A stretch of DNA of 64,000 nt from Candidatus Dojkabacteria bacterium (GTDB taxonomy: Bacteria; Patescibacteriota; Dojkabacteria; SC72), in contig JAVEVH010000001.1 of NCBI GenBank assembly GCA_034005145.1, forward strand, positions 1,899-65,898. Direction: 5' to 3'. Made by a program: the position numbers and the translations under genes. Of the stretch, positions 11,996 through 34,879 are shown in pieces (the stretch's first letter is position 1; each line of letters begins with the position of its first letter). The notes under the pieces are model-generated. The model worked only from the letters and a program-made list of their open reading frames with translations. It had not been told where the DNA came from and searched no databases.

Positions 11996-12024
11996 TTGAC
12001 AAACGTACACATTTCTACTATTAT
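11996..12024 (+). promoter_or_regulatory. Sigma70-type promoter upstream of the giant gene (TTGACA-17-TATTAT)
   Basis: ttgaca at 11996-12001, 17-nt spacer, tattat at 12019-12024, about 64 nt upstream of ATG 12088. AAAGG SD-like about 12 nt before the ATG. Confidence 0.5.
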
Positions 12025-12087
12025 TTTATCACAGATCATATAGCTCGAAAACACTGTCATATTAAAGAAAATAAAGGTCTGTGAAAT

Positions 12088-15000
12088 ATGATAAAAACTA
12101 ACTGCCCAAATATAGCAAAAAACTTATTCATTTTGCTGATAGTATCCTTTATTTTTGCTAGCTTAATCCTTACTCCAACATATGCTTTAACATCCGACAC
12201 TATTAACTTCCAAGGGAAGATAGTAAGAAATGATACAGGCTATGAGGGACTCAATGTCATACCAGGTACTCCAGCGTGTGTAGTAAGTGGTGCAAGTAAT
12301 GATACCTGTGACTTCCAAGTAGCATATTACACAGCATCAACAGGAGGTACCCTTCTTCTTACAGAAACATTCTTAAACAGAGAGATAGGGGAATATGAGG
12401 GTATATTTGAGCTTTCCTTAGGCAGTGGATCTGTGACTACTACTGGGCAGTGTAGGGATGGTACCTGTAATACCGTAGGTGAGGTAATTTCAGAGTATGG
12501 TGATATATATCTTGAATTAAAATTTGCTCCTGATGGTACAAACTTAACAGAGACCTTTAACAGGATGCCTTTAGAAGCAAGTGCATATTCAATTTTTTCT
12601 AAATATGCAGAGGGTGCACACGATGCTTTTAAACTAAGTACTTCCATTAGTTCTCAAACACAATCATCTCCTACAACAGGTATGGTGTATTACAATACCA
12701 CTGCAGGAGAGGTACAAGTCTACAATGGGAGTGGATGGGAGAACATTAGTGGTGAGTCCTTGTGGACAGATGCAGGAACATTTACCTACCTTACCTCGGC
12801 AAGTGATGATTTAGTACTTGGTGCTAATACTGTAGCTGGTTCTACATTTTTCTTTGATATGGATGGGAGTAGTGGAAGCTACTTTGAGATAGATAATGGT
12901 GCTAATACAGAAAGGCTTTTTACAATATTAGCTAATGGAAATGTTGGAATAGGTACAGCATCTCCCGGAGCTAAGTTGGAAGTGGCTGGGGCAAGTTCCA
13001 CGATTACAAATTCTACTGGTAACCTCACTATTTCGACTGGTGGGTTAAATGGAAATATCATATTTTCACCACATGGGACTGGTACTGTTCTAGTTGAGTC
13101 TACATTTGGGATTAAAGAGACGGGTACAACTCCAACCTACTACACATATTTTCAAGGTGGAGATCAGGGGGGTAACATTACTTATACATTACCAGTAAAT
13201 GATGGTGATGCTTCCCAAGTACTTACTTCAAATGGTAGTGGTGTTCTTAGTTGGAGTACAGTCCTAACAGGTGCTTCTAGATGGAATGAGATAGCGGCTC
13301 CTAATGGTAATACTTCAATGAGTCATGGTACATATACAACATCTTTTACATTTACAAATACAACAACATCATCATTTAGTTTAACGGGTAATAGTATATC
13401 TTCTGGTAAATTATTTTCTTTAGCTTCTTCTTCAGTAGGGTTAACAGGTTCAGTAGCGGATATTACATTGTCTGGTAGTAATGCAGCTAATACAGGGAGT
13501 TTGCTTAGTTTAAATAATACGGGGACTTTAAATACAGGTACTACAATGGTAATAAATCATTATGCTACTGGTACTAATAACTTAGCATTTAGAGTAAATG
13601 ATGTATCAGCAGATACTACACCATTTGTAATAGATGGGAATGGGAATGTGGGAATTGGGACAACTACCCCAGAAGGGTCACTGACTGTAAATGGTAGTGT
13701 TGGTATTGGTGATAATGCGAGTATAACGCAAGCCAGCCATTTTGTTGACATATATTCGACAACAGATTACGGTGGATCAAATGAATCTACTTTAAGAGTA
13801 AGAACAGCAGTAGAAGGTAATTTGACAGGTACTGAGATGGCTGCACTTGCATATAGAAATTCAAATTGGCGAGTTCTTTATGCTCAGCAGGGCAGTGCAG
13901 GTTCAGCACTCTATACAGATGGAAATGTCCATTTTATGAATGGAAGTGTTGGTCTTGGTACGACAAGTCCTCAGAGTATCTTTAACATATATCACGCAAC
14001 GGATCCTAAAATAACACTTCAGAACAGTACTACAGGAGTAACAAGTACAGATGGGTTCTATATTTCAGAAATTGGCTCCAATGCATATTTGTGGAATAGA
14101 GAAGACGGAGAGATGTATTTTGCAGTCAATAATGGCACTGCCTTGACTATTCAAGCGGATAAAGATGTAATTGTAAATTCCGGTAACGTAGGAATAGGTG
14201 ACACCACCCCCGCCTCTCTCTTCACAGTAGGTAACAATGATGTGTTCCAAGTAAGCAGTACAGGAGATTTAGTAAGTATAAAGGGAGTCTCTTATGTATG
14301 GCCAAGTGCTAATGCAACAGGAATGTTAACAAACAATGGAAGTGGAACATTATCATGGACAGATTTAAATGCAGGAGATGAATTATTACCAACAGGAACA
14401 GAAGGACAGATGTTATATAACAATGCAGGAGTATGGACAGCATATAGTGGAATGTATTGGGATGATGTAAATAGTAGATTGGGGATAGGGACTACGAGTC
14501 CAAGTACAAAGTTTGATTTGGTAGGAAATATGAAGACCTCAGGTTCAATATTTTCGGATGAGTCTGGTCCTCAACAAATAATCAAATTCCCAAATGTATA
14601 TGAGCCTGTGAATTTCGGTGCAAGTACTGGTGCAATAAAAATCAAGTTGCCAGCAAGAGCAGACAATGCAATGGTTAAAATAATAGTTGATATATATTCT
14701 TATAGCGGCAGTCAGTTAGCGGCTACATATGAGATAGGTGGGTATAATATTGGTGGGTCTTTTACTGCTAGCTATGCTTATACTCTTACTGGAAAGAGTT
14801 TCTTCCTCAATCTCCCAGTTAGATTTGGTGATGATTCTACCAATCTTATGTCATATATAATTATAGGGAATACTGATACCGCATGGGGGTCTTATTCTCC
14901 ATCTGTGGTTATTAGAGAAGTTCAGATTACAGGCTGGGGTGCTAGTACAAGTACAAATTGGCAAGATCCAAATAGTTATGAAATTACTATGACTACGGAT

Positions 15001-18000
15001 ACAACAGGTTTAACACTTTCAACGATAGCATCAACAACATCTCCAGCAGTGTTAGCGGGTAGTGTATCTGGTCTTACCGCTGGATCAATTCCGTATGCTT
15101 CTTCAGCAGGATCCCTTACTCAGAATAATGCGAATCTCTTCTGGGATGCTACCAATGCTAGAATAGGATTAGGAACAAATACTACAACAGCGAGAATTAC
15201 CTTAGGAGCCTCAACTGCTGCTACGGGAGGAATAGATTTTGGTGGAGATACTCCGTTATATAGATCCGCTGCAAGTATTCTTAAGACAAGACATTTATAT
15301 CCAGAAACGACAGGGACATATAATTTAGGTAATTCTTCCTTAGAGTGGCAATATATCTACGCTACAAGGATAATTGGTTCTGCGTATATAAATTCTGATT
15401 ATTTTGCTAGATATTCAGTAAATAATACTGCTTTTTTTGACTCGACTGCAGGAAATCCAGAATTGAGGGTTTATGGAAATGATGGTGCATTTAAATATGG
15501 ATATATGAAAGTTGATACTAACGGTGCATTTAATATTCTTTCTCAAACAGGTGAGGAGGTGAAATTGGGAGCTAATAATACTGTAGGTTTAACAATCGCG
15601 ACTTCAAATAACGTAGGAATAGGTGACACCTCCCCCGCCTCCCTCTTCACAGTAGGTAACAATGATGTGTTCCAAGTAAGCAGTACAGGAGATTTAGTAA
15701 GTATAAAGGGAGTCTCTTATGTATGGCCAAGTGCTAATGCAACAGGAATGTTAACAAACAATGGAAGTGGAACATTATCATGGACAGATTTAAATGCAGG
15801 AGATGAATTATTACCAACAGGAACAGAAGGACAGATGTTATATAACAATGCAGGGGCATGGACAGCATATAGTGGAATGTATTGGGATGATACAAATAGT
15901 AGGTTAGGGATAGGGACTACGAGTCCTGGAGCAAAATTACAAATAAATACAGGTGCAGACGCTACGAAGGGGTTAATAATAAGAGGGAATACCTCTCAAT
16001 CTGCCAATTTAACAGAATGGCAGAATAGTGGAGGGACAATTCTTGCAAGTGTAGATAGGATTGGTCATTTATCTGTTAATAATATACAGGCTTTATATGG
16101 AGGTTCTGCACAAGTAGATTCTATTGGAGGAACTTCATATTTGCCATATATGACGGATGCCTATTCAGATCAATTTATATTTAAACCTGTAACATCCTTA
16201 GAATATGACACAACAGGTTCTGGAAACTGGGTATCTCAAACAGCAAGCAATGCAAATGTTCTATTGGATAATTCTCAGAGTACATCATTAGCTATTCCAA
16301 CTGCTACTGCAAAAGGATTTAGGGTAGTTATCAATACAGGAGCTTGGTTGGCCCCTCAACTATTTGTTTTGGAGCAATCTTGGGCAAGCGGGAGCCCAAG
16401 TGGATCAGCACCACTTGAAATCACCCTTGAATCATCTCCCAATGGAACTGATACTTGGACTGTAAGAAAAGCTACTACAGCATTTGATTACCATGGTAGT
16501 AGTACAAATAAATATGTTTGGTTAACCGGTCATACAAGTGATCCTTATTGGAGAGTTACTGTTGTAAGGACAGATACTGGTACACAGGATCTTAGAGTTC
16601 AAAATATAAAGCTTTTGGCTTCATCAAATATGAGTTTTGGTTATACAAGGAGTTTACCATATGAATTTAACTATGATAAAAGTTTCAATTTCTACAATGA
16701 TAGTATGAAGATTAAATTAGCTAGTGGCCAAACAGCTAATGCGATTGAAATAAAGAATAGTTCAGGAACAGACCTTGCACTCATCTCCTCTGCTGGAGGT
16801 GCTTATTTTGCTAGCAACGTAGGAATAGGTGATACTACCCCCGCCTCTCTGTTTACAGTAGGTAATGGAGATCTATTCCAAGTAAACAGTAGTGGAGATT
16901 TAATAAAAATAAAAAATGTAACATACTCATGGCCAAGTGCTAATGCAAGTGGAGTATTAACAAACAATGGAAGTGGAACATTATCATGGACAGATTTAAA
17001 TGGAGGAGATGAATTATTACCAACAGGAACAGAAGGACAGATGTTATATAACAATGCAGGAACATGGACAGCATTTAATGGAATGTATTGGGAGGATGTA
17101 AATAGTAGGTTAGGGATAGGGACTACGAGTCCATTAAGCAGCTTAGACCTTAATAACGGAATTCTTTCTAGATATAACTCAAGTTGGACTGGTCTTAACA
17201 ATTCTGTAATAATTCCAACTCAAAACATTCTAGCTTTTGCAGATAAAAATTCTAATTATACAGTAACATTATCATCTCAGCCTGACTCAGGAAGTGTATC
17301 AAGTTTATTTGATGGTAATACGGGTACTACAGCTCTTTGGTATGATGCGAAATTGCCACTAACGATTCAGATAGATTTAGATAAACAGTACAATCTTAAT
17401 CATTTGTTTGGTGTAGGTTTTTATGGCCAATATTTTGCAAAGGATATAAAAATTGAAGTCTACAATGGAAATACTTCTACTTGGTATACAATTGTAGATA
17501 CTACTTCGAATGCTGATGATAGTTTTTCTTTCTACCAATATTATAACTACGTAACCAAGGTAAAGTTTACGTTCAATACATCAAATTCAAGTGGACGTAT
17601 AAATATCTCTACCCTCGTAGATGGTAATACCATGGATAGGAAGGGATATTATGTAAACAAGGGAGGGGATACTATGTATGGTGCTCTTACTATCAAGGGT
17701 ACAACCTCAGATAGTAGTGCTTTTGGACTTAACGTTACTGATTCAGCTAATGCTAGTAACTTTTATGTCAGAAATGATGGAAATGTTGGTATAGGGACTA
17801 CCACTCCTGGTTCAAGATTAGATGTTACAGCAAGTACCTCAAATGCTCTTGTAAATATTAATCAAACAAATACTTGGTCAGGATCGGAATGGGCATTATC
17901 GGTAACAGGGTATACAAATCTTAACGGGTTTAGAATAAATGCTGCAGATGGTATTAGGGCTCTTCATAAAGTGACTGCGGGTGGTGTAATGGGATTCTCA

Positions 18001-21000
18001 ACTCAAGGAGATGATCCTATCACATTCACGCAGTCTTCTAGCACTGAGAGAATGCGTATTGCTACTGGAGGTAATGTAGGAATCGGTGACACAACCCCCG
18101 CCTCTCTCTTTACAGTAGGTAGTGGAGACCTATTCCAAGTAAATAGTAGTGGAGATTTAATAAAGATTAAAAATGTAACATACTCCTGGCCAAGTAGTAA
18201 TAGTAGTGGAGTATTAACAAACAATGGAAGTGGAACATTAACATGGACAAACATAAGTAGTAGCTTATTACCAACAGGAACAGAAGGACAAATGTTGTAT
18301 AACAATGCAGGGACATGGACAGCATTTAATGGAATGTATTGGGATGATGTGAATAGTAGGTTAGGGATAGGGACTACGAGTCCTACTGCATATTTAGACA
18401 TAGAGTCTCCTGATGCAACTAGTTTACATCAAGAATGGAAAAGAGTAGATACAGGGAAAAGCTTTAATATTAGCCTTGCAGGTAGTGATTGGAGATTATC
18501 AGGTAGTGCAGGAGAAAACATCCTTCTAGCAGTTGATGCAAGCAGTTTAAATACAACAAACCTTGTAGGTATTGGAAGTAGTAACCCTGGTGCGAAATTA
18601 CAAATAGATACAGGAGCAGATGCTACTAAGGGTTTAATAGTCAAGGCGAATTCCGCAACTCAATCTGCAAATCTTACAGAATGGCAGAATAGTGCGGGTA
18701 CTGTATTAGGAGCAGTGACACCAACTGGAGCTTATTATATTGGTTCAAGCTCAAACTATACAACAGCTTTTACGGTTAAGGGCTCTTGGAGTGCTTCTAC
18801 TTACGGTATGATTTTAGACTTAGAACCAAGTGTAACTATTAGTGGATATGGTGGGTATGGCATATATTCAAATCCTTCAGTTACCCTTACAAACAGTAGT
18901 TGGAAAACAATTGAGAGTTCAATTAACAATCTCGTTGTTACAGGTACAAATGATTATAGAGGTTTCCATTTTAGTCAACCTGCGAATCTCACTGGAACAT
19001 TGACCAGCCAATACGGTATATATATTAACAGCTTAGACAAAGCAACCTCTAACTATGCTATTTATACAAACACAGGATTAAATAGGCTAGGTGATCAATT
19101 ATCTATTCTTGGTAGTGCAGATAGAACACAGTTAATAGTTAAGGCCAATTCTACACAAACTGTTAATCTTCAAGAATGGCAAAATAGTAGTGGAGTTGGA
19201 CTTTCTGTAATTAGTGGAAGCGGTTATTTAGGAGTAGGAGATTCAACCCCTGCCTCTCTCTTTACAGTAGGTAGTGGAGACCTATTCCAAGTAAATAGTA
19301 GTGGAGATTTAATAAAGATTAAAAATGTAACATACTCCTGGCCAAGTAGTAATAGTAGTGGAGTATTAACAAACAATGGAAGTGGAACATTAACATGGAC
19401 AAACATAAGTAGTAGCTTATTACCAACAGGAACAGAAGGACAGATGTTATACAACAATGCAGGAACCTGGACAGCATACAGTGGAATGTATTGGGATGAT
19501 GTGAATAGTAGGTTAGGGATAGGGACTACCAGTCCTCAGAGTACTGCACATGTATATGGAGCTTCCTCTATCAATACTATTTCAGGTATTTTTGGTAGGG
19601 GTTACCAAGTAGACAGTACAAACTATGGGTCCTTTGGTGCGAATTCTAGAGTAGGTCTTGTTGGAGCAACATACTATTCTAGCGTACCTAATTTACCCAT
19701 TAACCCCCTTGGTACACAGTATGCATCTGCTGGTTTGGTTGGTATAGGAGGGGGTACTAGTGGAGGTGGCTCGGGAATAGGAGTTTTTGGTTATGGACAA
19801 ACAGTTGATGCGAGAACTGGATTTACTGCAGGTGGTAGATTTATTGCTGAGACAAACGGAGATATCACAGCATATGAAGATTTGTATGGTGTTTATGCTA
19901 AAGCTAACGGTATTACTAATACTGTTGGGGCAGATAATTTATATGGTGTATATGGAGTTGCAACTGGGCAAGGTACGGATATTGCTTACGCAGGATATTT
20001 TTCAGCTACCGGGGGTGCTACTAATTATGGAATATATTCTGTAGCCGGTAACAACTATTTTAATGGTAGTGTTGGGATCGGCACAACCTCCCCAGACTAT
20101 ACCCTTCAAGTAAACGGAACCATAGCACCAGAGACAACAGATCAAGATCTAGGTACATCATCTTTAAGATGGGATGTATATGGTAATACAATAAATGCAG
20201 ACAGTACAGTAACCTTAACAGGCTTAGGAACAGGAACAGATAACTCAGTAGTAATATTAAACTCATCAAATCAATTAACAACAGATGAGATAGACAGTAG
20301 AGTATGGGGAACAAGCTTAGTAGATGGAAGTGGAACAACAGGTCAGTTATCCTACTGGGTAGATGCAAATACATTAGGCTCCCTAAGTTACTCAGGTTGG
20401 GATACAAATGCTAGTGATGATGTAACAGCATTCTTAGGTCTAACAGATACCCCAAGTGCATATACAGGCAATGGAGGATACTTAGTAAGAGTAAATTCAG
20501 GAGGAACAGCATTAGAGTTTGTAGCAGCTAGTACATATACAGATACCAATGACTATGTAGACTCAGTAGGATTTAATACAAGTAACGGAGTATTAACCCT
20601 AGGTAGAACAGGAGCATTACCAGACCTAACAACAGACTTAGATGGAAGATATTTACAATCAGAAGCAGATACCCTAGCTACAGTAACCGGTAGAGGAGCA
20701 AGTACAGCAACAGCACTCTCTCTAACCGGAGGAGCTACAGTAAGAGGTTTAACAGTAGATAATGCAACAGCAACCCATGACTTAATATCCATAACCGCAG
20801 CAGCAACAGGTGCCGCAAGATATACAGGAACCATAACTAATGCAGACCTAACAGCAGCACGTACATGGACATTCCCAAATAATACAGGTACTGTAGCACT
20901 AACTACTGATATACCAGCAGGAGCAACATATTGGACTAAGAATGCAGCAACCTTGTATCCTACAACCTCAGGAGATAGTGTAATACCTAATGGAACAGCA

Positions 21001-24000: not shown

Positions 24001-27000
24001 TATGCAAACCTTAGTACAGGTAATGTAGGAATAGATACAGGCTCTGCAGTTCCTGGAGCTAAATTACAAATAGGAGCAGGAACGTATGGACCAGGTGCTA
24101 ATCTGTCAGGTAATAGATTACAGATAAGCTCTAGCTCTGGTTGGGCATATATGACAATAGGTAATGCAGATGGTGCTAATACCCACAGATATATTGGTGG
24201 AGCAAGTGGAATACAGGCATTTGGTGTAGTATCTGATGCAGGATCTACTACAGAACATATGAGAATTACTTCTACAGGTAATGTAGGAATAGGGGATAGT
24301 AACCCTCTCTCACTACTTTCTGTAGGTACTGGTGGACTCTTTAGAGTAGATAGTGCAGGAGATTTAACTAGAGTAAAGGGAGTAACATACTCATGGCCAA
24401 GTGCAAATGCTACTGGTATATTAGCAAACAATGGTAGTGGTACACTCTCATGGTCATCACTAACAAGCTTAGGTGGAGCATTAGGTACAGGTGCAGCAGG
24501 TAGAGCAGCATTCTGGACAGATACCAATACCCTATCTAGTGATAGTAATTTTGCTTGGGATAATGTAAATAAGAGATTAGGTATTGGTACTAGTACACCA
24601 CAATATTCATTAGATATAGCTGGTTCTACATCAGAAATAGGTAATACAGCAGGAGATATTACTATTAATCCTACAGGTAATTTAATATTATCTGATGGTA
24701 GATTTGGTATAGGTACTACTAATCCTCAAGCCTCTATAGATATAGCAGGAGCTACATCAGAGATAAGTAATGTTAGTGGGGATATAACTATTAATCCTGC
24801 TGCTAACCTTATTATTACTGATGGAAATGTAGGGATAGGTGAGAGTACTCCTACAGGCGTTATAGATGCTATATATTCCACTTCTGCAGGTACTAGGAAA
24901 ATGGTTTTAACTAGTTCAGGACTTCGTTTTAGGAGGACTGGGGACACGGCTGCTTGGGCAATAAATGGCTATGGATTTAGTTCAAACAATGGTACGGATC
25001 TTGGTGGATTTGGGGCTTATGGTACAGAGACATCTCTTAATTATTACTATATAGGAACTACTTATTCCTCTCCTCTTATGTCTATTTCCAGTGGGGGAGC
25101 TGTTGGTATTGGAGTTGCTTCTGCTACCAAAACTCTTGAAGTAGCTGGTAATATGAAAATGTCCTACACAAACACAGGTACAGGTAGTACAGATATCTTT
25201 GATACTACATATACACAATCTGTAGCAGCTCCTGCAGGTACTATTAATGGTGGTATGTTTAAAGCTATCTTTAATACCACTGGTACTATGTATGATATGG
25301 CTGCTTTAAAAACAGATATTCAAAATACTAGTAGTGGTACAGTAAGTAGAATGTTTGGATTTAGAAATGAAATACATAATGAAAGTACAGGAACTGTTAC
25401 ATTAGCATCCTCTATATATGGTAGAGGATACCAAGCAGATGCAGCAGGTACTATCTCTGGATTACATACATTCTGGGCTGAGGGAGCATATAAAGGGGCC
25501 GCAGGTACTATCACTGGTCAAACAGGTTTAACAGTAAGTGGTTTAACTACTGCTACTAACAATACGCACATCTTATTAGGTACAGCATCTATACCTACAG
25601 GTAACTACGCTATATATAGTAGTACTTCCTCTGCTAGTTACTTCGCAGGGGATCTTACTACATCCAGAGCATTTGTAACAGGTTTATCTTCGAGCTGGGG
25701 TGTTACAAGTGGTGTAAATACAGGTGGTGTAAATGTGACTATGGGAACATCTTCAGCTGCAACATGGCTAATCTCTGGAACAAGTGGTGGGACTTTCCGT
25801 GCAGGTTTACAGGCACTTGATAGTAGTGGAATATTAAGAATATATTCTAATAGTAGTTATGTTTCTTTTGATGGAGGAGCTATCTCCGCTACAGGTGCAG
25901 TAAATGTAGGATCTTTACAAATTAATAGTACTACTCCAACATTAACATTCAATGAAACAGATCAAGTAGCTTGGACATACTCTATAGATGGAGATCAGTG
26001 GTTAGTTAAGAGAAGTGGTGTAGATAAGTTGGTAGTAAATAATGCAGGATCTTTAATTATTAAGGGAGATTTATCAAATAATGAGGATTCGACAGTATAT
26101 ATGGGTGCTACAGCTTCAAGCTCATCCTTAAGGCTTAAGAGTAATAATTCAGATACTCTTACTCTATACTCCAATGGTAATGTAGGTGTGGGTAATACTG
26201 CTCCTGCAGCTAAATTAACTGTAGGATCAAATATAACGGGAAGTGCTGCTAGTACAACCTTCCAGACTAATGCAGGATCTTTAGGGACAGCAATTTACAG
26301 CTCATTAAAATTAGCATCTATAGGGTTTACTTCCTCAAATCAATCATCTTTGACTATCTTGGGATATAGGCATACTGCTGGTACAAACTGGGACACAACC
26401 TCTATTGGTATAGGAATGAGTGTAGATTCGTCAACCTATGTAAATGATGCTGCATTATGGATTAGTCATCATGGGCACGTTGGAATAGGCGCTGGTGCTA
26501 TGTCATATAAATTTGAGGTAACTGATAACGATGCTGCATATACTACAATGTCCCAAAATACTTATACAGGAGCTAATAAGAAAAACTTATTAATAAGAAA
26601 TTATAGCTCTAATGGTAGTTTTGCTACCTCTGACTATCTCGTCGTATTCTCTAATACATATAACTGGGGTGTTAATGGAAGAATAAATGGTAATGGTACT
26701 GGAATTCAATATACGACATCATCAGATGCAAGACTTAAAACAAACGTTAGTTCCATTTCTAACGCACTTGATACTTTAATGAAGATGGATGCAGTCACCT
26801 ATAATTGGATTAATGGTGGGGCTAAAGATGCAGGTTTCTTAGCTCAAGACTTACAGCCACTCTATCCATTTGCAGTTAGTGGGAGTCCTGATGGAGATCC
26901 AATAATGGATCCAATGACTATTGATTACGGTAAATTAACACCAATAATTGTTGCTGCAATAAAGGATTTAAATAAGAAGGTGGATTCTAATGTATTAGGA

Positions 27001-28161: not shown

Positions 28162-31058
28162 TGAAGAAAGAAAATACCTTTAAAAAGATATTAGTATGTA
28201 CTACATACTTAGTACTAGCAATAGTATGTATCTTCGGTGTGTTCTTTTTAATATATAAAAGTAGTAATAGAGAAAATGACAATATTGTAAGAGCACAAGA
28301 TAGTGGTACATATTTAAGGAGTGTTAATCCTAAATTTCTAGTTGATTTTGTTAACGATGAATATATTAGGTTTGAAACAGTATCATCATACAGTAACCCA
28401 TTTGAAGGAACTAAGGGTAATATATGGCAAAAAATCCAATATATGCTTGGCATTAGACAACAGAGGAAAGGAATTGAGATATCACTAATAGATGTATCAT
28501 ATGACACAGAACTAAGAAATATACTAGAAGAAAGAGATATTAATATATCCGAATTTAATATTAACAGAAGCTTTGAATTAATATCTAGTGGGAGAGTAAT
28601 AGGGGAGGAAGGAGAAGAACCAGTATCTAAAGATACCGTAATATCAAGAAATATATATAGAGGGGTAGATTTAGAATATCAGATAATTGAAGGTAAGGGA
28701 TTAAAGGAAGAGATTGTACTAAGAGAAATACCCCAGTATGTAACAGAGTGTAGTAGTGGAGAGTGTACACTACCGGTAAATAGGTTTCTGTTTAAATTAG
28801 ACTTAGATGAAGGCCTAGAGATTAAAAGAAGTATAGAGGGCAATGACCAATATCCTTCTGGAGCTTTGTATATAGTGGATGGGGAGGGTAACTACTACGC
28901 ACATTTCTTACCTGAATACGCAGTTGATGCCGTTGGTAATAAAACGAGTAATGTTGTTTCAAATATATCTGTATCTGATAAAGGTGGATATATATTTGAA
29001 GTAATATTAGATTCAGAGTGGTTACTTAGTGAGGAAAGAGTCTTTCCCATTAGAATAGATCCAAGTATTGTACATGATAGTGAGATATCTTTTAACGAAG
29101 GGAAATATGACAGGGTATCTACTAATGAAGCTGTAATGCTCTCTCTAAATGAAGGGTACAAATCAGGATCATATACATCTGGTATTTTAGATTTAGGCTC
29201 TAATAGCAGGTTAAATGGAATCTCATGGGATGGTTACTCCCAAGCCACTGGAGATGGAGAAATCTCTTACTCTGTAGTAGGGTTGATACACCAAGAGGAT
29301 TTTAATGATTTAATCTCCTCTAAAACCAAATGGGGTAGTGGAGCATTACAACTAGATACCCTTACTGATACCCATACTGTACCAATTACTCCTAACGAAA
29401 CAGATTACTTTACCTTAGAGCTTTGGTCTAATAGTAGATATATACAAAATGAACAGTATATCCTTAAATCCAATCTAATTAATCTAAAGGTTAAAGAGGG
29501 TCTGTATATATTAGAAGATAGTGGGGGTATAGAGTATCCAACAGAATTACCTGCTAAGTACAACGATTGGGAATATATAGCGGTAATAATGGATATGCAA
29601 GGCTCAAGTATATCTTTGTATGTAAACGAATTAGAGTATGAAGTTGAGGTAATATATACAGATACACTGCTTAATACCTTAACCTTTACTCAAAGTATTG
29701 GATATATTGACTCTGTTAGAGTGTATGATAGGTTGGTACCTAGAAATGAGCTCTTAGGAAACTCACAATACAGTAATATATATCTACAATACTCACTTAG
29801 TGATGATGGTTTAACATGGTCAGATTGGTATACAAAAAATAAATATCTTCCAGAGAGTGTTGTAGGAGAGGGTAATATATCTCTTACCTCTGAAGTAGAA
29901 GATATGAGTATTTTTGATATCCTTACCTTTAAATATTTTACAGACACAGAACAAGAAATTACCCTTGGGATTAATAACTTTGTTAATGGTGTAGATGAAC
30001 AAGATATTACTAGGTTAGAAGAAATAGAGGGCATAATAGAGCTTACAGAAGACATTAAATATATGGATGTACTCTTTACTCCAGATGAGGTACAGAATGG
30101 CTGTATATTGGCTCTAGAGGGCTTAGAAATATATACATTAACCTCAGGTGAAGTAGGAATATATCTTAATGATGAAAACCTCTTAACAGAGGATATGTAT
30201 ATACCAAATACAACCAATATACTCTCCATTTCTCTTACCCCAACTAATACAGATATATATCTAAATGGAAATGTATTACAAAGTAGTACAATACATACAC
30301 TTACACCCCAAACATATACCGTAGGGGATGGATGTACTACGAGTTTGAGTACTCCTTTTGTAGGTGATATTAAGGGTGTAAGGCTCTCTACACAGGAAAA
30401 AAGTAGTATAGATATTCTAGAGTACAGTAATATATTAAATAGGACATATATATTAAAACCTGTGTTTAAAGCAGTATTACAATCTGATACACAGATTGTA
30501 GATATTAATGATACAACCTTCTCAATTGCTGAGATAGATTCCTCTCAATTAATATCTAATCTGTATGTAGGAGATACTGTGGTAATCTCTGAGGATGAAG
30601 AGTTCGTACAAGGTATTGTTTCTTCTTTAGACAGTGATACAGGTTTAGTTACTGTAGATGGTTGGCAAGAGGGTAGTACTGTCCCAGAGTTAGGCTTCTC
30701 TACCCTTGCCTCTATTGTAAAGTGGGAAGAGGAACATATATTTGTTAATACATTCTTAGAAAGAAATACCCCTATAAATACCCTGACTTTAGCTTCCGAT
30801 ATAGTAGGTAATATTAAAGATATTACTCTATTTAGTACGCAGGATATGGGTGATGAAGTACTCTTTGAGAATACAAATTCTAGATATCTTAAATACAAAT
30901 TCATATACATTACCTCTAGGCAGGGTATGTCTTCATACCTCTCTTCTGTTAATATTGATTTTGAGAGTGGGGGACCAGAGATGGATCAGATATTGCGACA
31001 TGGACAGTGGTTTAATGAGGGTAGTAAACAAGGTTTTTGGTGGGTAGAACAACAGTAA
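28161..31058 (+). CDS. Membrane-anchored (N-terminal TM) large protein of unknown function, translationally coupled to the giant gene
   Basis: ATG overlaps the giant gene's stop as TAATG (start taken at the internal Met of the listed ORF). TM helix KKILVCTTYLVLAIVCIFGVFFLIY. 965 aa, no recognised motif. Confidence 0.55.
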   Translation: MKKENTFKKILVCTTYLVLAIVCIFGVFFLIYKSSNRENDNIVRAQDSGTYLRSVNPKFLVDFVNDEYIRFETVSSYSNPFEGTKGNIWQKIQYMLGIRQQRKGIEISLIDVSYDTELRNILEERDINISEFNINRSFELISSGRVIGEEGEEPVSKDTVISRNIYRGVDLEYQIIEGKGLKEEIVLREIPQYVTECSSGECTLPVNRFLFKLDLDEGLEIKRSIEGNDQYPSGALYIVDGEGNYYAHFLPEYAVDAVGNKTSNVVSNISVSDKGGYIFEVILDSEWLLSEERVFPIRIDPSIVHDSEISFNEGKYDRVSTNEAVMLSLNEGYKSGSYTSGILDLGSNSRLNGISWDGYSQATGDGEISYSVVGLIHQEDFNDLISSKTKWGSGALQLDTLTDTHTVPITPNETDYFTLELWSNSRYIQNEQYILKSNLINLKVKEGLYILEDSGGIEYPTELPAKYNDWEYIAVIMDMQGSSISLYVNELEYEVEVIYTDTLLNTLTFTQSIGYIDSVRVYDRLVPRNELLGNSQYSNIYLQYSLSDDGLTWSDWYTKNKYLPESVVGEGNISLTSEVEDMSIFDILTFKYFTDTEQEITLGINNFVNGVDEQDITRLEEIEGIIELTEDIKYMDVLFTPDEVQNGCILALEGLEIYTLTSGEVGIYLNDENLLTEDMYIPNTTNILSISLTPTNTDIYLNGNVLQSSTIHTLTPQTYTVGDGCTTSLSTPFVGDIKGVRLSTQEKSSIDILEYSNILNRTYILKPVFKAVLQSDTQIVDINDTTFSIAEIDSSQLISNLYVGDTVVISEDEEFVQGIVSSLDSDTGLVTVDGWQEGSTVPELGFSTLASIVKWEEEHIFVNTFLERNTPINTLTLASDIVGNIKDITLFSTQDMGDEVLFENTNSRYLKYKFIYITSRQGMSSYLSSVNIDFESGGPEMDQILRHGQWFNEGSKQGFWWVEQQ

Positions 31059-31082
31059 TTAAATTAATAAATTTTAATATAT

Positions 31083-31709
31083 ATGGGAGTTAAAGATAGT
31101 TTAGGTAGTGATAACGGGAAGTTTCTACTACTAGCATTTGCACTACTACTGGTATCCATAGTAATTGTTTTTGTAATGAATTCTGGTATGTACGGTCTCT
31201 CTGGAGACCTTCTAAATGGTAAAAGTACATACAGTGAACCTAAAGATGTACTTGAGCAGGAGTATGATTACTCAATATTGATAAGTACCATATATGGTGA
31301 TATCCAGATAGATTTGTATGAGGAATTAGCTCCTAACAATGTAAATAGTTTGTTGTTTTTAATGGGAGAACGATACTATGAAGGTCTTACAATACATAAG
31401 GTAGTAAAGGATTTTGTAATACAAATGGGAGATGCTAAAGGAGATGGTACAGGTGATCCTGGATATACAGTAGAGCAGGAGAACTTAGTTTCTTTTGAGG
31501 ATTTTGAGGTAGGTATGGCAAACTCTTCTCAATTTTTCATAGTGTTAGAGGGAGCAGACAAGAGTACCTTAGATGGGAATTACAGTGTAGTTGGAAGAGT
31601 AACCCAAGGGTTTGCAGTATTAGAATCAATAGGGAAGGTAGAAGTCAATGGAGACTACAGGCCACTTAATGATATCGTAATTAAGAGTATTCAAATCCAA
31701 GAGAATTAA
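31083..31709 (+). CDS. ppiB: Peptidyl-prolyl cis-trans isomerase, cyclophilin type, N-terminal membrane anchor
   Basis: Cyclophilin core motifs (YEGLTIHKVVKDFVIQMGD, NSSQFFIV, GRV.QG..VL..I) after an N-terminal TM segment. Confidence 0.85.
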   Translation: MGVKDSLGSDNGKFLLLAFALLLVSIVIVFVMNSGMYGLSGDLLNGKSTYSEPKDVLEQEYDYSILISTIYGDIQIDLYEELAPNNVNSLLFLMGERYYEGLTIHKVVKDFVIQMGDAKGDGTGDPGYTVEQENLVSFEDFEVGMANSSQFFIVLEGADKSTLDGNYSVVGRVTQGFAVLESIGKVEVNGDYRPLNDIVIKSIQIQEN

Positions 31710-31747
31710 TACTACAGGATTTCTTACTTAAGATATATTTAATACCT

Positions 31748-31770
31748 CCCATTTAAAATATTTAAATGGG
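31748..31770 (+). promoter_or_regulatory. Perfect 10-bp-arm palindrome (cccatttaaa-ata-tttaaatggg) spanning the comEA start codon
   Basis: Arms at 31748-31757 and 31761-31770. The ATG (31766) lies in the 3' arm. Candidate operator or translation-occluding hairpin. Confidence 0.35.
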
Positions 31771-32467
31771 AAGTAAGGTAAAAGTAAAAAATATTTCAAT
31801 CCTTTTCCTCTTTTTTTGTTTAGGATATATCTCTAATATCCTTGTACTTAATTGGGGTGAAATAGATATATATCAATATATATCTAAATTAAGAGAGGAG
31901 AGTGTAATAACTGAGATAGAGGAAAATATTGTTGTAGAGAAAGAAATATGTGAACCAGAGGTAGTAATCGAAGAGGAGATAGATACATGCCCAATACTAG
32001 TTGATATTAGTGGGGCTGTTAAAACTCCGGGTGTTTACTGTTTTGAGAAAGGATCTAGTGTTGTAGATGCTGTTAAAAAGGCAAAAGGTTTTACATTAGA
32101 TGCTGGTTTTAAATATATATCAATGAGAATTAATCTAGCTACAGTAATGATAGATAACTCGAAGATATATATACCCTTTGAAATAGATTACGATTGTAAA
32201 CTCTTAACATTTAATCTCCCTAAAGATGTAATTGATATTACAATACCTGATATTGAGGATGATGAGGAAGATACTCAGCAACCCTCTGAGTGTATTAGTA
32301 TTAATACTGCTACACAACAAGAGTTAGAAACTCTAAGTGGTGTAGGGCCCTCTACAGCATTAAAGATAGTGGGGGGTAGGCCATATACTGTTTTAGAGGA
32401 TTTGTTGAATGTAAGCGGTATAGGGGATGCTACATTCAATGCTTTTAAGGATAGTATATGTCTTTAA
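31766..32467 (+). CDS. comEA: Competence protein ComEA-like (TM anchor, SLBB domain, tandem HhH DNA-binding motif)
   Basis: C-terminal ISINTATQQELETLSGVGPSTALKIV...LLNVSGIGDATF (HhH x2). Central SLBB-like VDISGAVKTPGVY. Confidence 0.75.
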   Translation: MGSKVKVKNISILFLFFCLGYISNILVLNWGEIDIYQYISKLREESVITEIEENIVVEKEICEPEVVIEEEIDTCPILVDISGAVKTPGVYCFEKGSSVVDAVKKAKGFTLDAGFKYISMRINLATVMIDNSKIYIPFEIDYDCKLLTFNLPKDVIDITIPDIEDDEEDTQQPSECISINTATQQELETLSGVGPSTALKIVGGRPYTVLEDLLNVSGIGDATFNAFKDSICL

Positions 32468-33975
32468 AAACATTAAAGGAGAGATATAGGGGGATATTAC
32501 TGTTTTTCATTGATTACAAAGCATTACTTTACTGTTTTACAATTTTAAGCACACTAATCTCGGGTAGTAATATCCTAGAAAGGATCATCTTTGAGGGAGA
32601 GATTTTAAGTTTAGGATTACTTTTCGATTTTTTACTACCCTCCTTAATTCTTCTTTTCTTCTTCACTGTTTCATACAAGCATTTTTGTGATGTGTATCTT
32701 TTTGGTACATTGCTAAAAGTCTTTCTAATATCATATCTTTTAACACTACCGTTACTCTCCCTTAAATTTGAGAATATTACTTCCCAGCTACAAAATGTCC
32801 AAAGTTTCACTGGCAAAAATGTGTGGATATCTGGGGTAGTGACCTCCCAAGAGAAGGAGAACACATTCCTGTTTCACTCTGATAGGGGAGGGTTGGGTAA
32901 TTCTTTAATACGTTTTAAACAGTATCCTGTTTTACATACAGGTCAAAGGTGTAAATTAGGTGTAAAAGTAGTGGAACCTAAGAGTTTTGAAGAGTTTGAT
33001 TACAAAAGATATCTCTTTAGAAAAGGAATATATTCAATATTAGAGGTAAATGAATATGAATGTAGTAATGGAGGTAATATGTTTTTAGAAATGAGATATG
33101 TATTAGAGAGAGTAGTAGAAAAGTCTCTTTCAGAACCAGAGGCTTCTCTTTTGATAGGGATAATGTTTGGTAGTAAGAGAGTATTTAGATCTGATTTTAA
33201 TACTGCATTAAATAGCTCTGGTGTATCTCATGTCATCGCAGCATCAGGATATAACGTAGCATTGGTTGGAGAGGGGGTAGAGAAGCTAACAAAGGGTATT
33301 AGGGGTAAGGGTGTAGTACTTTTTAAAATACTTTGTATATGGGGGTTCTCAGTATTCTCAGGCCTATCATCATCCTTAGTAAGAGCATCTAGTATGAGTA
33401 CTCTTTCTCTCTTTGCTCTTTTACTTGGTAGAGAGAGTAACAAGGGTGCTACATTAATCCTTTGTGCTACTGTATTAATATCTCTTAACCCATTCTTAAT
33501 ACATGATTTAGGTTTTCTTTTCTCTTTTGCATCAGTAACTGGTTTAATATTTCTTCCTAAATGTTTTGAAAATATTAAATCTAAATTCCTAAAAGAGAGT
33601 GTATTAACAACATTAACATGTATACTATTCACACTCCCAATCTCTGTAATATTCTTTGGTAAGGTTTCGGTGATATCGTTGGTGAGCAATATAATAGTGG
33701 TCCCTATAATTAACAGTACGATATTTTGGGGATTAGGGGTTACATTGATAAATATGTTGGTATCAATACCCATATTGTATCTAATACCATATATACAATT
33801 AAAAATATTTAAATATTTTGTATCAATATCCTCTAATATACAAATGGTAGAGATAGGGGTGAATAAGTATGTATTTGGAGTAGGCATATATTTACTTCTT
33901 TTCCTTTTCTGTTTATACAAATATCCTGTATCATCTAAAAACCACTATTTAAAAATATCTAAAAGGTATGAGTAA
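32458..33975 (+). CDS. comEC: ComEC/Rec2 DNA-uptake channel, membrane (competence) domain only
   Basis: Polytopic membrane protein with a DUF4131-like N-terminus and the ComEC competence domain (LLIGIMFGSKR...GVSHVIAASGYNVALV). Lacks the MBL domain, which is encoded by the next ORF. Confidence 0.75.
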   Translation: MSLKTLKERYRGILLFFIDYKALLYCFTILSTLISGSNILERIIFEGEILSLGLLFDFLLPSLILLFFFTVSYKHFCDVYLFGTLLKVFLISYLLTLPLLSLKFENITSQLQNVQSFTGKNVWISGVVTSQEKENTFLFHSDRGGLGNSLIRFKQYPVLHTGQRCKLGVKVVEPKSFEEFDYKRYLFRKGIYSILEVNEYECSNGGNMFLEMRYVLERVVEKSLSEPEASLLIGIMFGSKRVFRSDFNTALNSSGVSHVIAASGYNVALVGEGVEKLTKGIRGKGVVLFKILCIWGFSVFSGLSSSLVRASSMSTLSLFALLLGRESNKGATLILCATVLISLNPFLIHDLGFLFSFASVTGLIFLPKCFENIKSKFLKESVLTTLTCILFTLPISVIFFGKVSVISLVSNIIVVPIINSTIFWGLGVTLINMLVSIPILYLIPYIQLKIFKYFVSISSNIQMVEIGVNKYVFGVGIYLLLFLFCLYKYPVSSKNHYLKISKRYE

Positions 33976-34777
33976 CAATATATTAGAGAATTTAATATGG
34001 TTAATATTTGGATTAATATATTTAATTACGGTTAAGTATGAAGATACCGTTGTGTTTTTAGATGTAGGGCAGGGTGATTCCATATTAATACAGGAGGGTA
34101 ATATTCAAGTTTTAGTTGATGGAGGGCCAGATTCTTCAGTCCTTTACGAATTACAGAAATATATCCCTATGTATGATAGAGAGATTGAGTATGTAGTGCT
34201 TACTCATCCTCATGATGATCATCTTGTGGGTCTTTTAAAAGTGCTTGAGAGGTATGAAGTAGGTGAGATATTGTACTACCCTGTATGCTACGAGAATGAA
34301 AACTATGAGTTGCTCCTACAGCAATATCCTAACGCAAAAAAGTTAGGTCAAGGTGACACTATTAGGCTAAAAAATATTGACATCGATATACTTTGGCCTG
34401 TACTTAATAGTGGGGCAGAAGGGTGTGTAGCTCAGTATAACTCGGATGTAAACAATGACTCCTTAGTTTTAAGTTTTGAATTTTTAAAGAAAAAATTTCT
34501 TCTAATGGGAGACATTGAAAGTGACGTGGAGGAGGTGATGGTTAGGGAGGGTATCATAGGTAGTGAGTACGATGTACTCAAGGCTGGTCATCACTGTTCT
34601 AACTCCTCTAGTAGTGAAATATTTTTAGAAATTGTAAAACCAGATATCGCTGTATGTAGTGTGGGAGAAAGGAATTCCTTTGGTCATCCAGGGAGTGAAA
34701 CATTACAATCTTTTTTAAATTACAATGTTCAATATTTAATCACCTATGAGGAGGGAAATATACAGATAAAGGAGTGA
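33968..34777 (+). CDS. Metallo-beta-lactamase-fold protein = detached ComEC C-terminal nuclease-like domain
   Basis: HxHxDH motif LTHPHDDHLVGL and downstream His/Asp ligands. Start overlaps the comEC stop (ATGAGTAA). Ends with TGA, the only TGA stop noticed in the window. Confidence 0.7.
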   Translation: MSNNILENLIWLIFGLIYLITVKYEDTVVFLDVGQGDSILIQEGNIQVLVDGGPDSSVLYELQKYIPMYDREIEYVVLTHPHDDHLVGLLKVLERYEVGEILYYPVCYENENYELLLQQYPNAKKLGQGDTIRLKNIDIDILWPVLNSGAEGCVAQYNSDVNNDSLVLSFEFLKKKFLLMGDIESDVEEVMVREGIIGSEYDVLKAGHHCSNSSSSEIFLEIVKPDIAVCSVGERNSFGHPGSETLQSFLNYNVQYLITYEEGNIQIKE

Positions 34778-34802
34778 AATTGTGATAAAATCGATATATA
34801 AT

Positions 34803-34876
34803 GTACTTGTAGCTCAATTGGATAGAGCATTGGTTTGCGGAACCAAAGGTTGACAGTTCGATTCTGTCCAAGTACA
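34803..34876 (+). tRNA. tRNA-Arg (anticodon GCG)
   Basis: Acceptor GUACUUG/CAAGUAC, D-arm GCTCAATTGGATAGAGC, anticodon stem TTGGT/ACCAA with loop UUGCGGA (U33, G37), T-arm GACAGTTCGATTCTGTC. 74 nt. Confidence 0.7.
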
Positions 34877-34879
34877 TAC

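What the first reader, a model, noticed from the sequence alone, without database searches (positions are those of the whole stretch)
12088..34777. Co-directional 22.7-kb locus: giant fibre, TAATG-coupled anchored 965-aa protein, anchored cyclophilin, ComEA, split ComEC. Possible attachment-plus-DNA-uptake module
Seen: all seven genes are on the + strand with short gaps. The giant gene's stop and the next gene's start share TAATG (translational coupling). A membrane-anchored cyclophilin (extracytoplasmic folding catalyst) follows, then ComEA (DNA receptor) and ComEC (channel) with its nuclease-like MBL domain. Established: CPR bacteria largely lack de novo nucleotide synthesis and are thought to scavenge DNA/nucleotides from hosts. 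Inference: a genomic coupling of a host-attachment fibre with the DNA import machinery.
Basis: inference. Interest (0 to 1): 0.5.

Follow-up and report, generated by a model that had tools for sequence, protein, structure and literature searches.

The report
Surface fibre beside separately controlled DNA-uptake genes
In an uncultured Dojkabacteria (CPR) genome, a variable two-gene surface-fibre cassette sits next to a conserved DNA-uptake gene set, but the two look like separate units with their own control signals, not one attachment-plus-import machine.

Summary
The genes are real and mostly as described. There are six + strand ORFs, not seven. The giant stop and the next start overlap in TAATG. 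The cyclophilin, ComEA, ComEC and separate MBL identifications hold.

The organism is a Candidatus Dojkabacteria (WS6) bacterium. The adjacency is conserved: 51 of 80 ComEC-seeded loci from related species carry the fibre/partner pair upstream.

The functional-module reading is weak for five reasons.
- All genes from 227 to 40280 are co-directional.
- The housekeeping flanks (rho, lysM-M23, leuS, argS) are conserved in the same order.
- In 14 species leuS abuts the cyclophilin directly, and cyp-comEA-comEC-mbl stays intact.
- The giant gene has its own conserved near-consensus promoter.
- comEA carries a conserved element specific to it: 11-nt-spaced TT[AC]AT repeats, a -10 hexamer 5-7 nt before the ATG, and a covarying hairpin over the start codon.

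Best reading: an accessory, hypervariable lectin-tipped fibre cassette sits at a variable site next to an independently regulated competence unit with a split ComEC.

Interest is moderate. The new items are the comEA control element, the class-wide ComEC|MBL split, and an undescribed C-terminal fibre domain family.

The parts
11996..12024 (+). Near-consensus sigma-70 promoter (TTGACA-17-TATTAT) in the 115-nt leuS-giant spacer
   Evidence: It scores 11/12. The same element is conserved in 8 related loci while the rest of the spacer diverges.
12088..28161 (+). Giant secreted fibre protein, 5357 aa. It is T/G/S/N-rich (45%), has a signal peptide, about 13 'GIGTTSP' tail-fibre-like module starts, an S74 chaperone domain and a conserved C-terminal domain pair.
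   Evidence: ORF. Composition and motifs. PHROG tail-fibre/tail-spike partial hits. Conserved N-terminal ~315 aa and C-terminal ~365 aa versus 1494-1788-aa relatives.
14169..20375 (+). Five tandem 1.15-1.43-kb modules inside the giant gene, with a sixth diverged copy near 24280. These intragenic duplications explain the gene's size.
   Evidence: copies start at 14169, 15594, 16800, 18070 and 19222. Some 300-nt stretches are 95-96% identical. End coordinate is approximate.
26722..26877 (+). Peptidase_S74 intramolecular-chaperone domain. The Ser-Lys motif S4879-D-A-R-L-K4884 begins at nt 26719.
   Evidence: Pfam gives 51 bits against a cut-off of 22. Motif position. About 478 aa follow the putative cleavage site.
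27055..28158 (+). Conserved C-terminal region of the giant protein: two beta-sandwich domains, the last a CBM-like jelly roll. No Pfam family matches it.
28161..31058 (+). Membrane-anchored 965-aa partner protein: a TM helix, an N-terminal beta domain and tandem LamG/ConA-like lectin domains. Its start overlaps the giant's stop (TAATG).
31083..31709 (+). Membrane-anchored cyclophilin-type PPIase. The active site is conserved except that Arg55 is Lys.
   Evidence: Pfam gives 104 bits. Active-site columns. It lies upstream of comEA-comEC in 73 of 80 loci, with or without the fibre cassette.
31728..31775 (+). comEA control element. Direct repeats are TTAAG (31728-31732) and TTAAT (31739-31743). 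The -10-like TAAAAT is at 31754-31759, 6 nt before the ATG at 31766. A hairpin at 31743-31775 includes the start codon.
   Evidence: The full motif occurs 62 times in 1.27 Mb, against 0-1 in shuffles; 58 of the 59 matches followed by an ORF of at least 60 aa are at comEA. Hairpin mean z is -3.14, against about 0 at other gene starts. No Rfam family matches.
31766..32467 (+). ComEA: TM anchor, SLBB domain and helix-hairpin-helix DNA-binding domain
32458..33975 (+). ComEC channel part: DUF4131/OB fold plus Competence domain
   Evidence: The start overlaps comEA by 10 nt, with an SD-like AAGGA.
33968..34777 (+). Separately encoded ComEC C-terminal metallo-beta-lactamase domain, with its own TM helix and an intact HPHDDH metal motif
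   Evidence: It is a separate ORF in 72 of 80 loci, and the frame relation to comEC varies.
34774..34802 (+). Promoter-like site (GTGAAA-17-TATAAT) directly after mbl and before two tRNA-Arg genes and argS. It probably starts the next unit.
   Evidence: 10/12 match. tRNAs.

Best explanation
The interval is not one module. It holds two separable units plus a cyclophilin gene whose unit membership is unresolved, all on a conserved housekeeping backbone of a Dojkabacteria genome (rho, lysM-M23, tRNA-Ala x2, leuS ... tRNA-Arg x2, argS).

Unit 1 (11996-31058) is an accessory two-gene surface cassette with its own strong promoter.
- The first gene encodes a Sec-exported tail-fibre-like protein. In this genome it has grown to 5357 aa by tandem module duplication. 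It carries an S74-type intramolecular chaperone and ends in a conserved CBM-like domain.
- The second gene is translationally coupled to the first. It encodes a membrane-anchored protein made of ConA/LamG lectin-like domains.
- Inferred: the pair forms a glycan-binding cell-surface fibre with the 965-aa protein as its membrane-side partner. It probably serves cell or host contact.

The cyclophilin gene (31083-31709) encodes an anchored extracytoplasmic PPIase. It belongs to the conserved backbone, not to the cassette.

Unit 2 (31728-34777) is comEA-comEC-mbl, a standard DNA-uptake set.
- ComEA binds dsDNA outside the membrane.
- The separately anchored MBL nuclease is expected to degrade one strand.
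- ComEC imports the other strand.
- The unit has a class-wide conserved, comEA-specific control region. It looks like an activator-dependent leaderless promoter: two 11-nt-spaced repeats end 10 nt before a -10 hexamer.
- A hairpin on top of this would mask the comEA start codon in any transcript reading through from upstream.

The fibre cassette lies at a variable site between leuS and cyp. Its closeness to the com genes is most simply inherited gene order.

Shown: the gene identities, the synteny pattern, and the conserved sequence and structure elements. Inferred: adhesion, the partner role of the 965-aa protein, leaderless initiation, activator control and the hairpin's function.
For: Organism and backbone.

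Synteny, from 80 ComEC-seeded loci:
- 73 have cyp-comEA-comEC adjacent.
- 72 have a separate mbl ORF.
- 51 have the cassette.
- 14 have leuS abutting cyp with a gap of 3-136 nt.
- A nested cassette-less clade in the ComEC tree indicates loss.
- Other cargo occupies the same site in some loci.

Cassette variability: the giant homologue is 1494-5357 aa and the partner 788-2624 aa. S74 is replaced by a different, Peptidase_G2-like region in some relatives.

Cassette coupling and promoter.

comEA element:
- A -10 hexamer lies 4-9 nt before the start in 63 of 75 loci. The figure is 9% at random positions, 3% at comEC, 8% at mbl and 10% at the 965-aa gene.
- Repeat columns are 83-97% conserved.
- The motif is specific to comEA.
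- The hairpin z-scores are strongly negative only at comEA.
- (TGn)TATAAT 5-7 nt before the ATG is common in this genome, for example at clpC, mreB and 38956.

Folds. No viral relatives were found.
Against: - No transcript data exist, so read-through from the giant promoter into cyp and the com genes cannot be excluded.
- No convincing terminator lies anywhere in the interval.
- The p965-cyp gap is only 24 nt here, with no clear promoter.
- The cassette has stayed next to the com genes across deep divergence (ComEC identity down to about 30%). That could reflect selection.
- The related loci share ancestry, so the counts are not independent events.
- The hairpin and the leaderless promoter are partly in tension. 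A transcript starting at the ATG lacks the 5' arm. The dual-role explanation is my inference.
- Adhesion and glycan binding are inferred from fold only.
Confidence: 0.6

Rival explanations
1. The six genes form one co-transcribed functional module: the fibre attaches to a host or prey cell, and ComEA/ComEC import the DNA released there.
For: - All genes are co-directional with gaps of 56 nt or less, and no terminator signal exceeds chance.
- The fibre cassette lies directly upstream of cyp-comEA-comEC-mbl in 51 of 80 related loci spanning deep divergence.
- Both sets of products are extracytoplasmic.
- DNA scavenging by CPR bacteria has been proposed (PMC6744442).
Against: - The housekeeping flanks show the same conservation.
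- 14 species keep the com block without the cassette.
- comEA has its own specific conserved promoter-like element, and a hairpin that would mask its start codon in read-through RNA.
- The giant gene's promoter is of a different type and lacks the repeats.
- The site upstream of cyp carries unrelated cargo elsewhere.
- comEC is dispensable for epibiotic growth in Saccharibacteria (PMC10633639).
Confidence: 0.12
2. The cyclophilin belongs to the fibre unit (operon giant-p965-cyp). It would act as the extracytoplasmic folding helper for the very large beta-rich fibre and the lectin protein, and only comEA-comEC-mbl would be separate.
For: - The p965-cyp gap is 16-25 nt in the closest relatives and 24 nt here, with no clear promoter in this window.
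- The strong boundary signals lie after cyp, not before it.
Against: - cyp is retained next to comEA in every cassette-less locus, directly after leuS.
- About 41% of relatives have a -10-like hexamer just before the cyp ATG, and several have a full TTGnnn-17-TAnnnT there.
- Arg55 is Lys in this genome, so catalytic strength is uncertain.
Confidence: 0.25
3. The giant gene and its partner are remnants of a prophage tail-fibre module and are not a cellular surface structure.
For: An S74 chaperone domain and partial PHROG tail-fibre/tail-spike hits. Sources label some relatives 'tail fiber domain-containing' or 'T4-like proximal tail fiber'.
Against: - No other phage genes lie nearby; the context is housekeeping.
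- The giant protein has a signal peptide and the partner a TM anchor.
- The chromosomal position and promoter are fixed across many species.
- IMG/VR holds no relative of the C-terminal domain and only one marginal 57-aa hit to the partner.
Confidence: 0.03

Closest known systems
comE-type competence locus (ComEA plus ComEC/Rec2), as in Bacillus subtilis comEA-comEC
   Same: ComEA has a membrane anchor and an HhH DNA-binding domain. ComEC has OB/DUF4131, Competence and MBL parts. The genes are adjacent with overlapping starts and stops.
   Different: - The MBL domain is a separate, self-anchored ORF in nearly all Dojkabacteria. Earlier surveys scored CPR ComEC simply as lacking the fusion (PMC6744442; PMC6299819 does not mention adjacent or split MBL genes).
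- There is no comEB.
- An anchored cyclophilin precedes comEA.
- The control region (TT[AC]AT repeats, leaderless-type -10, start-codon hairpin) matches no known competence regulator site that I could identify and no Rfam family.
Phage tail fibres and tailspikes with a C-terminal intramolecular chaperone (Peptidase_S74, e.g. endosialidase, T5 L-shaped fibre)
   Same: An S74 domain with the Ser-x4-Lys motif, a T/G/S/N-rich fibrous body, and PHROG tail-fibre similarity.
   Different: - The gene is cellular and chromosomal, and the protein has a signal peptide.
- S74 is not terminal. About 430 aa (two beta-sandwich domains) follow it.
- Some orthologues carry a different region in place of S74.
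- The gene is paired with a membrane-anchored lectin-like protein.
Fibrillar adhesins and large repeat-containing surface proteins of bacteria, including the large surface proteins and adhesins required for epibiotic growth in Saccharibacteria (PMC10633639)
   Same: A secreted, very long protein with a repeat-expanded stalk, conserved ends, a variable middle, lectin/CBM-like terminal domains, and high variability between species.
   Different: No sequence family is shared with known adhesins. The C-terminal domain has no Pfam model, and no sortase, LPXTG or other known anchoring signal was seen. No functional data exist for Dojkabacteria.
PhoB/OmpR-type activator-dependent promoters (Pho box)
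   Same: Two or three short direct repeats with an 11-nt period, the last ending 10 nt upstream of the -10 hexamer and replacing a -35 element. The comparison with Pho-box geometry rests on my own knowledge.
   Different: The repeat sequence TT[AC]AT is short and AT-rich. No cognate regulator was identified and no other regulon members were seen in the sequence held. The transcript would be leaderless.

Membership tests
ComEC/Rec2 DNA-uptake channel | Competence (PF03772) transmembrane domain | tested here: met
   122.8 bits against a cut-off of 23, covering residues 236-488
ComEC/Rec2 DNA-uptake channel | N-terminal OB-fold (DUF4131) and C-terminal MBL nuclease domain in one polypeptide (the B. 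subtilis-type DCL architecture) | tested here: not met
   DUF4131 is present (41.7 bits). The MBL domain lies in a separate overlapping ORF, 33968-34777. TIGR00361 matches in two halves, each below the 190-bit cut-off (88.2 and 103.9 bits). The split is conserved in 72 of 80 loci.
ComEC/Rec2 DNA-uptake channel | MBL metal-binding motif HxHxDH | tested here: met
   HPHDDH is visible in the translation. Lactamase_B scores 62.6 bits.
ComEA DNA receptor | Membrane anchor plus C-terminal helix-hairpin-helix DNA-binding domain (with SLBB) | tested here: met
   HHH_3 46.5 bits and SLBB 30.3 bits. An N-terminal hydrophobic segment is present. TIGR01259 scores only 57.9 against a cut-off of 152, so this is a divergent member.
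Cyclophilin-type PPIase | Pro_isomerase domain | tested here: met
   104.3 bits against a cut-off of 21.7
Cyclophilin-type PPIase | Catalytic residues (human CypA numbering: R55, F60, Q63, N102, F113, H126) | tested here: inconclusive
   H54, F60, Q63, A101, N102, Q111 and F113 are conserved. R55 is Lys here and in 30 of 78 relatives. H126 is Tyr, as in active E. coli PpiB. Activity was not tested.
Peptidase_S74 intramolecular chaperone (self-cleaving) | S74 domain with the Ser/Lys dyad spaced by five residues | tested here: met
   51 bits against a cut-off of 22. S4879-D-A-R-L-K4884 is present.
Peptidase_S74 intramolecular chaperone (self-cleaving) | The domain sits at the extreme C-terminus and is released after trimer folding | tested here: not met
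   About 430 aa follow the Pfam match. Cleavage cannot be tested here.
Single operon (one transcription unit, giant gene to mbl) | No internal promoters or boundaries; one primary 5' end | tested here: inconclusive
   No terminators exceed chance. A conserved promoter-like element and a start-codon hairpin lie at comEA, and a promoter lies at the giant gene. Transcript mapping is needed.
Conserved functional gene cluster (fibre plus com genes) | Co-occurrence beyond the background synteny | tested here: not met
   The com block is intact without the cassette in 14 loci. The housekeeping flanks are equally conserved, and other cargo occupies the same site.
Leaderless mRNA promoter | -10 hexamer ending about 5-8 nt upstream of the start codon, with no SD | tested here: met
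   TAAAAT ends 6 nt before the ATG. This holds in 63 of 75 relatives, and the same geometry occurs at several other genes in the window. The actual 5' end cannot be tested here.
LamG/ConA-like lectin fold (965-aa protein) | Jelly-roll domain recognised by sequence and by structure | tested here: met

The most novel reading that the evidence does not exclude
The fibre cassette's long-standing position directly upstream of the competence genes is selected. The lectin-tipped fibre would hold a host or prey cell at the envelope site where ComEA, the MBL nuclease and ComEC are inserted. Contact and DNA capture would then be physically coupled even though their transcription is controlled separately.
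Probability: 0.08. Interest if true: 0.75.

Novelty: new variant of a known kind. Interest (0 to 1): 0.4.

Why it matters
Dojkabacteria are uncultured, and nothing is known about how they contact other cells or control DNA uptake. This analysis makes three things testable:
- A compact, class-wide control element at comEA implies that competence is regulated and not constitutive.
- The reported absence of the ComEC nuclease domain in CPR bacteria is, in this class, a gene split and not a loss.
- A large undescribed family of secreted fibres shares one C-terminal domain and a lectin-like membrane partner. These are candidate host-contact structures.

It also warns against reading function from adjacency in small genomes where long runs of genes share one strand and keep the same order between species, as in this window and its related loci.

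Tried and rejected
- Exact look-up of the window's 965-aa protein found no contig on record.
- Word-indexed searches with the giant's C-terminal 957 aa and 368 aa returned few hits, mostly fragments. The profile search was needed.
- RNAalifold found no consensus for the comEA hairpin, because stem register and length differ between clades. I used per-sequence z-scores with control gene starts instead.
- Rfam matched only tRNAs in the window and nothing credible at 31000-32000.
- NCBIfam gave nothing for the giant or partner proteins. PHROGs gave nothing for the partner and only partial tail-fibre/tail-spike hits for the giant.
- Literature searches for Dojkabacteria surface or giant proteins, and for leaderless mRNAs in CPR, gave nothing relevant.
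- Programmed frameshifting at the ComEC|MBL junction is rejected. The frame relation is +1 in some loci and -1 in others, with ordinary start/stop overlaps (coordinates).
- Prophage origin is rejected.
- A diversity-generating retroelement was considered for the fibre, but no reverse-transcriptase domain appeared among the 41 window ORFs scanned; rho and lysM-M23 were identified only from the Pfam labels of their relatives.
I therefore could not check whether cassette-less genomes carry the cassette elsewhere.
Full report
**Observation.** The interval 12088-34777 holds six + strand ORFs, not seven:
- 12088-28161, 5357 aa
- 28161-31058, 965 aa
- 31083-31709, 208 aa
- 31766-32467, 233 aa
- 32458-33975, 505 aa
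- 33968-34777, 269 aa

The giant gene's TAA (28159-28161) and the next ATG (28161-28163) share a base as TAATG. An SD-like AGAGGA lies in the giant's last codons. Homologue lengths of 953-973 aa and the N-terminal TM helix favour the ATG at 28161 over the upstream in-frame ATG at 28074. The gaps are -1, 24, 56, -10 and -8 nt.

Pfam and NCBIfam confirm the domain assignments:
- Peptidase_S74 at aa 4879-4930 of the giant
- Laminin_G_3 in the 965-aa protein
- a cyclophilin
- ComEA (SLBB plus HHH_3)
- ComEC (DUF4131 plus Competence)
- an MBL protein that matches the C-terminal third of the ComEC_Rec2 model

Co-directionality carries no weight, because every gene from 227 to 40280 is on the + strand. 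Promoter-like and terminator-like hits inside the interval do not exceed shuffled expectation.

**Organism and context.** A scan of species-representative genomes with a ComEC alignment returned 80 loci. Many are named Candidatus Dojkabacteria or candidate division WS6. Many others carry generic labels such as 'uncultured Candidatus Saccharibacteria', which I take to be mislabels because they share the same locus. The rest of the window is housekeeping:
- Nth, S1, ClpC-like, RadA, rho and LysM-M23
- two tRNA-Ala genes, LeuRS, two tRNA-Arg genes, ArgRS and tRNA-Pro
- an ECF sigma factor, RlmN-like, form III-like RuBisCO, ProRS, UvrA, MreB and ribosomal proteins

No type IV pilus genes and no other competence genes lie in the window.

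**Synteny.** Homologues of the 965-aa protein at 34-41% identity sit in the same order everywhere: leuS, a large protein (1494 to more than 4117 aa), the partner, cyclophilin, comEA, comEC, a separate mbl, argS. The 80 loci seeded on ComEC are unbiased with respect to the fibre. Among them:
- 73 have cyp-comEA-comEC adjacent.
- 72 have a separate mbl ORF.
- 51 have a partner homologue upstream of cyp.
- 14 have leuS directly abutting cyp, with a gap of 3-136 nt.
- 15 are undetermined.

A rough neighbour-joining tree of ComEC places one cassette-less clade inside cassette-bearing clades, which indicates loss. Basal lineages lack the cassette. In L042 and L066 the space upstream of cyp holds AbiE-like genes. 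In L070 a 1-kb insertion separates the fibre gene from its partner.

So the adjacency is conserved, but so are the housekeeping flanks. The com block does not depend on the cassette, and the site between leuS and cyp behaves as a variable site.

**Transcription and translation signals.** The 115-nt leuS-giant spacer contains TTGACA-17-TATTAT (11/12 match). This element is conserved in eight relatives while the surrounding spacer diverges. A hairpin downstream in the 5' leader shows compensatory changes in those relatives, but it is weak in the window itself. The fibre-to-partner junction is -1 to +7 nt in 17 of 24 loci.

The cyp-comEA spacer carries three superimposed conserved features.
- **Repeats.** Two (sometimes three) direct repeats TT[AC]A[T/G] have an 11-nt period. 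The proximal repeat ends 10 nt before the hexamer described next. Its columns are 83-97% conserved.
- **Hexamer.** A TAnn[AT]T hexamer ends 5-7 nt before the comEA start codon. It is found 4-9 nt upstream in 63 of 75 distinct loci. The comparison figures are 9% at random positions, 3% at comEC, 8% at mbl, 10% at the partner gene, 41% at cyp and 38% at argS.
- **Hairpin.** A hairpin includes the start codon. For positions -30 to +15 the mean z-score is -3.14, and 77% of loci fall below -2. At the cyp, comEC, mbl and argS starts the mean lies between -0.44 and +0.12. The stem sequences differ completely between clades.

The full repeat-hexamer-start pattern occurs 62 times in 1.27 Mb on both strands, against 0-1 in shuffles. 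Of the 59 matches followed by an ORF of at least 60 aa, 58 are at comEA. In the window it is unique on the + strand. It matches no Rfam family.

(TGn)TATAAT 5-7 nt before the ATG is common in this genome, for example at the ClpC-like gene, mreB, 38956, 39741 and 40371. Internal operon genes such as comEC and the partner gene have SD-like motifs instead. I therefore read the comEA hexamer as a leaderless-type promoter. Its upstream repeats have the geometry of an OmpR/PhoB-type activator site. That comparison comes from my own knowledge, and no regulator was identified.

A transcript starting at the ATG would lack the hairpin's 5' arm. The hairpin can then act only on RNA arriving from upstream, where it would mask the comEA start. 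This dual reading is inference. Either way, a conserved boundary lies between cyp and comEA. A promoter-like site immediately after mbl precedes the tRNA-Arg genes.

**The fibre pair.** The giant protein is 45% Thr, Gly, Ser and Asn. It contains about 13 GIGTTSP-type motifs and has patchy PHROG tail-fibre and tail-spike similarity.
- Its first ~315 aa, including a signal peptide with an AxA-like site, are conserved with the 1494-1788-aa relatives. So are its last ~365 aa.
- The middle is expanded by tandem 1.15-1.43-kb modules. Some 300-nt stretches in them are 95-96% identical.
- The S74 motif S4879-D-A-R-L-K4884 is intact. If cleaved, it would release a 478-aa C-terminal fragment.
- In several orthologues a different region replaces S74. 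Pfam weakly calls it Peptidase_G2.
- Only the last ~220 aa are conserved in all orthologues.
- A profile of this region finds 1527 cluster representatives at E<=1e-10. In each of the 150 best hits listed, the match ends at or within a few residues of the C-terminus. The named hits are from WS6. No Pfam family covers this region.

The 965-aa partner models well (pLDDT 81, pTM 0.72). It has a TM helix, an N-terminal beta domain and tandem LamG/ConA-like jelly rolls. Its invariant aromatic C-terminal tail (RHG.WF...FWW) is predicted to be disordered.

IMG/VR holds no relative of the fibre C-terminal domain and one marginal hit to the partner. Together these data fit a cellular, secreted, glycan-binding fibre with a membrane-side partner. 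Adhesion itself is inferred.

**The cyclophilin and the com genes.** The cyclophilin keeps the substrate-pocket residues but has Lys for Arg55, as do 30 of 78 relatives. The MBL protein has its own TM helix and an intact HPHDDH motif. The frame relation between comEC and mbl differs among loci, so the split is an ordinary gene split and not a frameshifting site. In L071 comEA, comEC and mbl are one 1018-aa ORF. Méheust et al. reported that the ComEC-MBL fusion is essentially absent from CPR genomes (PMC6744442). Pimentel and Zhang treat such cases as domain loss and do not mention adjacent MBL genes (PMC6299819). Here the domain is present as a neighbouring gene.

**Mechanism and rivals.**
- **Most likely (0.6).** An accessory fibre cassette with its own promoter, a backbone cyclophilin, and an independently regulated comEA-comEC-mbl unit acting in the standard way: dsDNA capture, one-strand degradation, ssDNA import.
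- **One functional module (0.12).** This is not excluded, because there are no transcripts and no terminators, and the adjacency is old.
- **Cyclophilin serves the fibre (0.25).** This is a variant compatible with the main reading.
- **Prophage origin (0.03).** This is rejected.

The nucleotide-scavenging premise is weakened by Saccharibacteria genetics. There comEC is not needed for growth on the host but is needed for transformation (PMC10633639).

**Novelty.** The gene kinds are known. Three things are new: the comEA control element, the class-wide split of ComEC, and the fibre/partner family with its undescribed C-terminal domain. I rate this a new variant of known kinds, with moderate interest.

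Noticed in passing
window 12025-12087; L001, L002, L005, L025-L028 leuS-giant spacers: The 5' leader of the giant gene contains a hairpin with a TAGAAA-like loop in relatives. All six predicted pairs show double compensatory changes (n=8). The hairpin is weak in the window's own sequence.
   Followed up: partly
window 14169-20375 and 24280-24500: Recent tandem duplication of 1.15-1.43-kb modules inside the giant gene, with up to 96% identity over 300 nt. It explains the length of 5357 aa against about 1500-1900 aa in relatives. Copy number could be prone to assembly error.
   Followed up: partly
window 31083-31709: The cyclophilin has Lys in place of the catalytic Arg55 (human CypA numbering). 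So do 30 of 78 Dojkabacteria relatives, while 43 keep Arg.
   Followed up: partly
L071:3254-6310: In candidate division WS6 GWC2_36_7, comEA, comEC and the MBL domain form a single 1018-aa ORF. In nearly all relatives they are three genes.
   Followed up: no
L042:164-3065, L066:3-1293, L070:1313-2390: Unrelated cargo sits at or in the cassette site. L042 and L066 have AbiE-like toxin-antitoxin genes directly upstream of cyp. L070 has a 1-kb insertion between the fibre gene and its partner. This suggests an insertion-prone site.
   Followed up: partly
window 2228, 7864, 38956, 39741, 51715 (+) and 41360 (-) gene starts: (TGn)TATAAT or TACAAT lies 5-7 nt before the ATG of several genes with no SD motif. 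This suggests that leaderless mRNAs are common in this organism.
   Followed up: partly
window 34802-34953 and 34978-36765; 9244-9400: Two tRNA-Arg genes lie immediately upstream of arginyl-tRNA synthetase. Two tRNA-Ala genes precede leuS.
   Followed up: no
window 52734-59689: A cluster of a MATCAP-like peptidase, four ATP-grasp (RimK, GARS_A-like and sugar-transfer types) proteins and a 7TM_transglut membrane protein, on both strands. It may be a peptide-ligation or modification system.
   Followed up: no
window 42388-43758: A RuBisCO large-subunit homologue of the kind linked to nucleoside salvage in CPR bacteria. A RuBisCO gene also lies downstream of argS in one relative (L002).
   Followed up: no
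window 30995-31055 (C-terminal 20 aa of the 965-aa protein): An invariant aromatic tail (R946 H947 G948 W950 F951 ... W960 W961) is predicted disordered in the monomer model. It may be a docking peptide.
   Followed up: no
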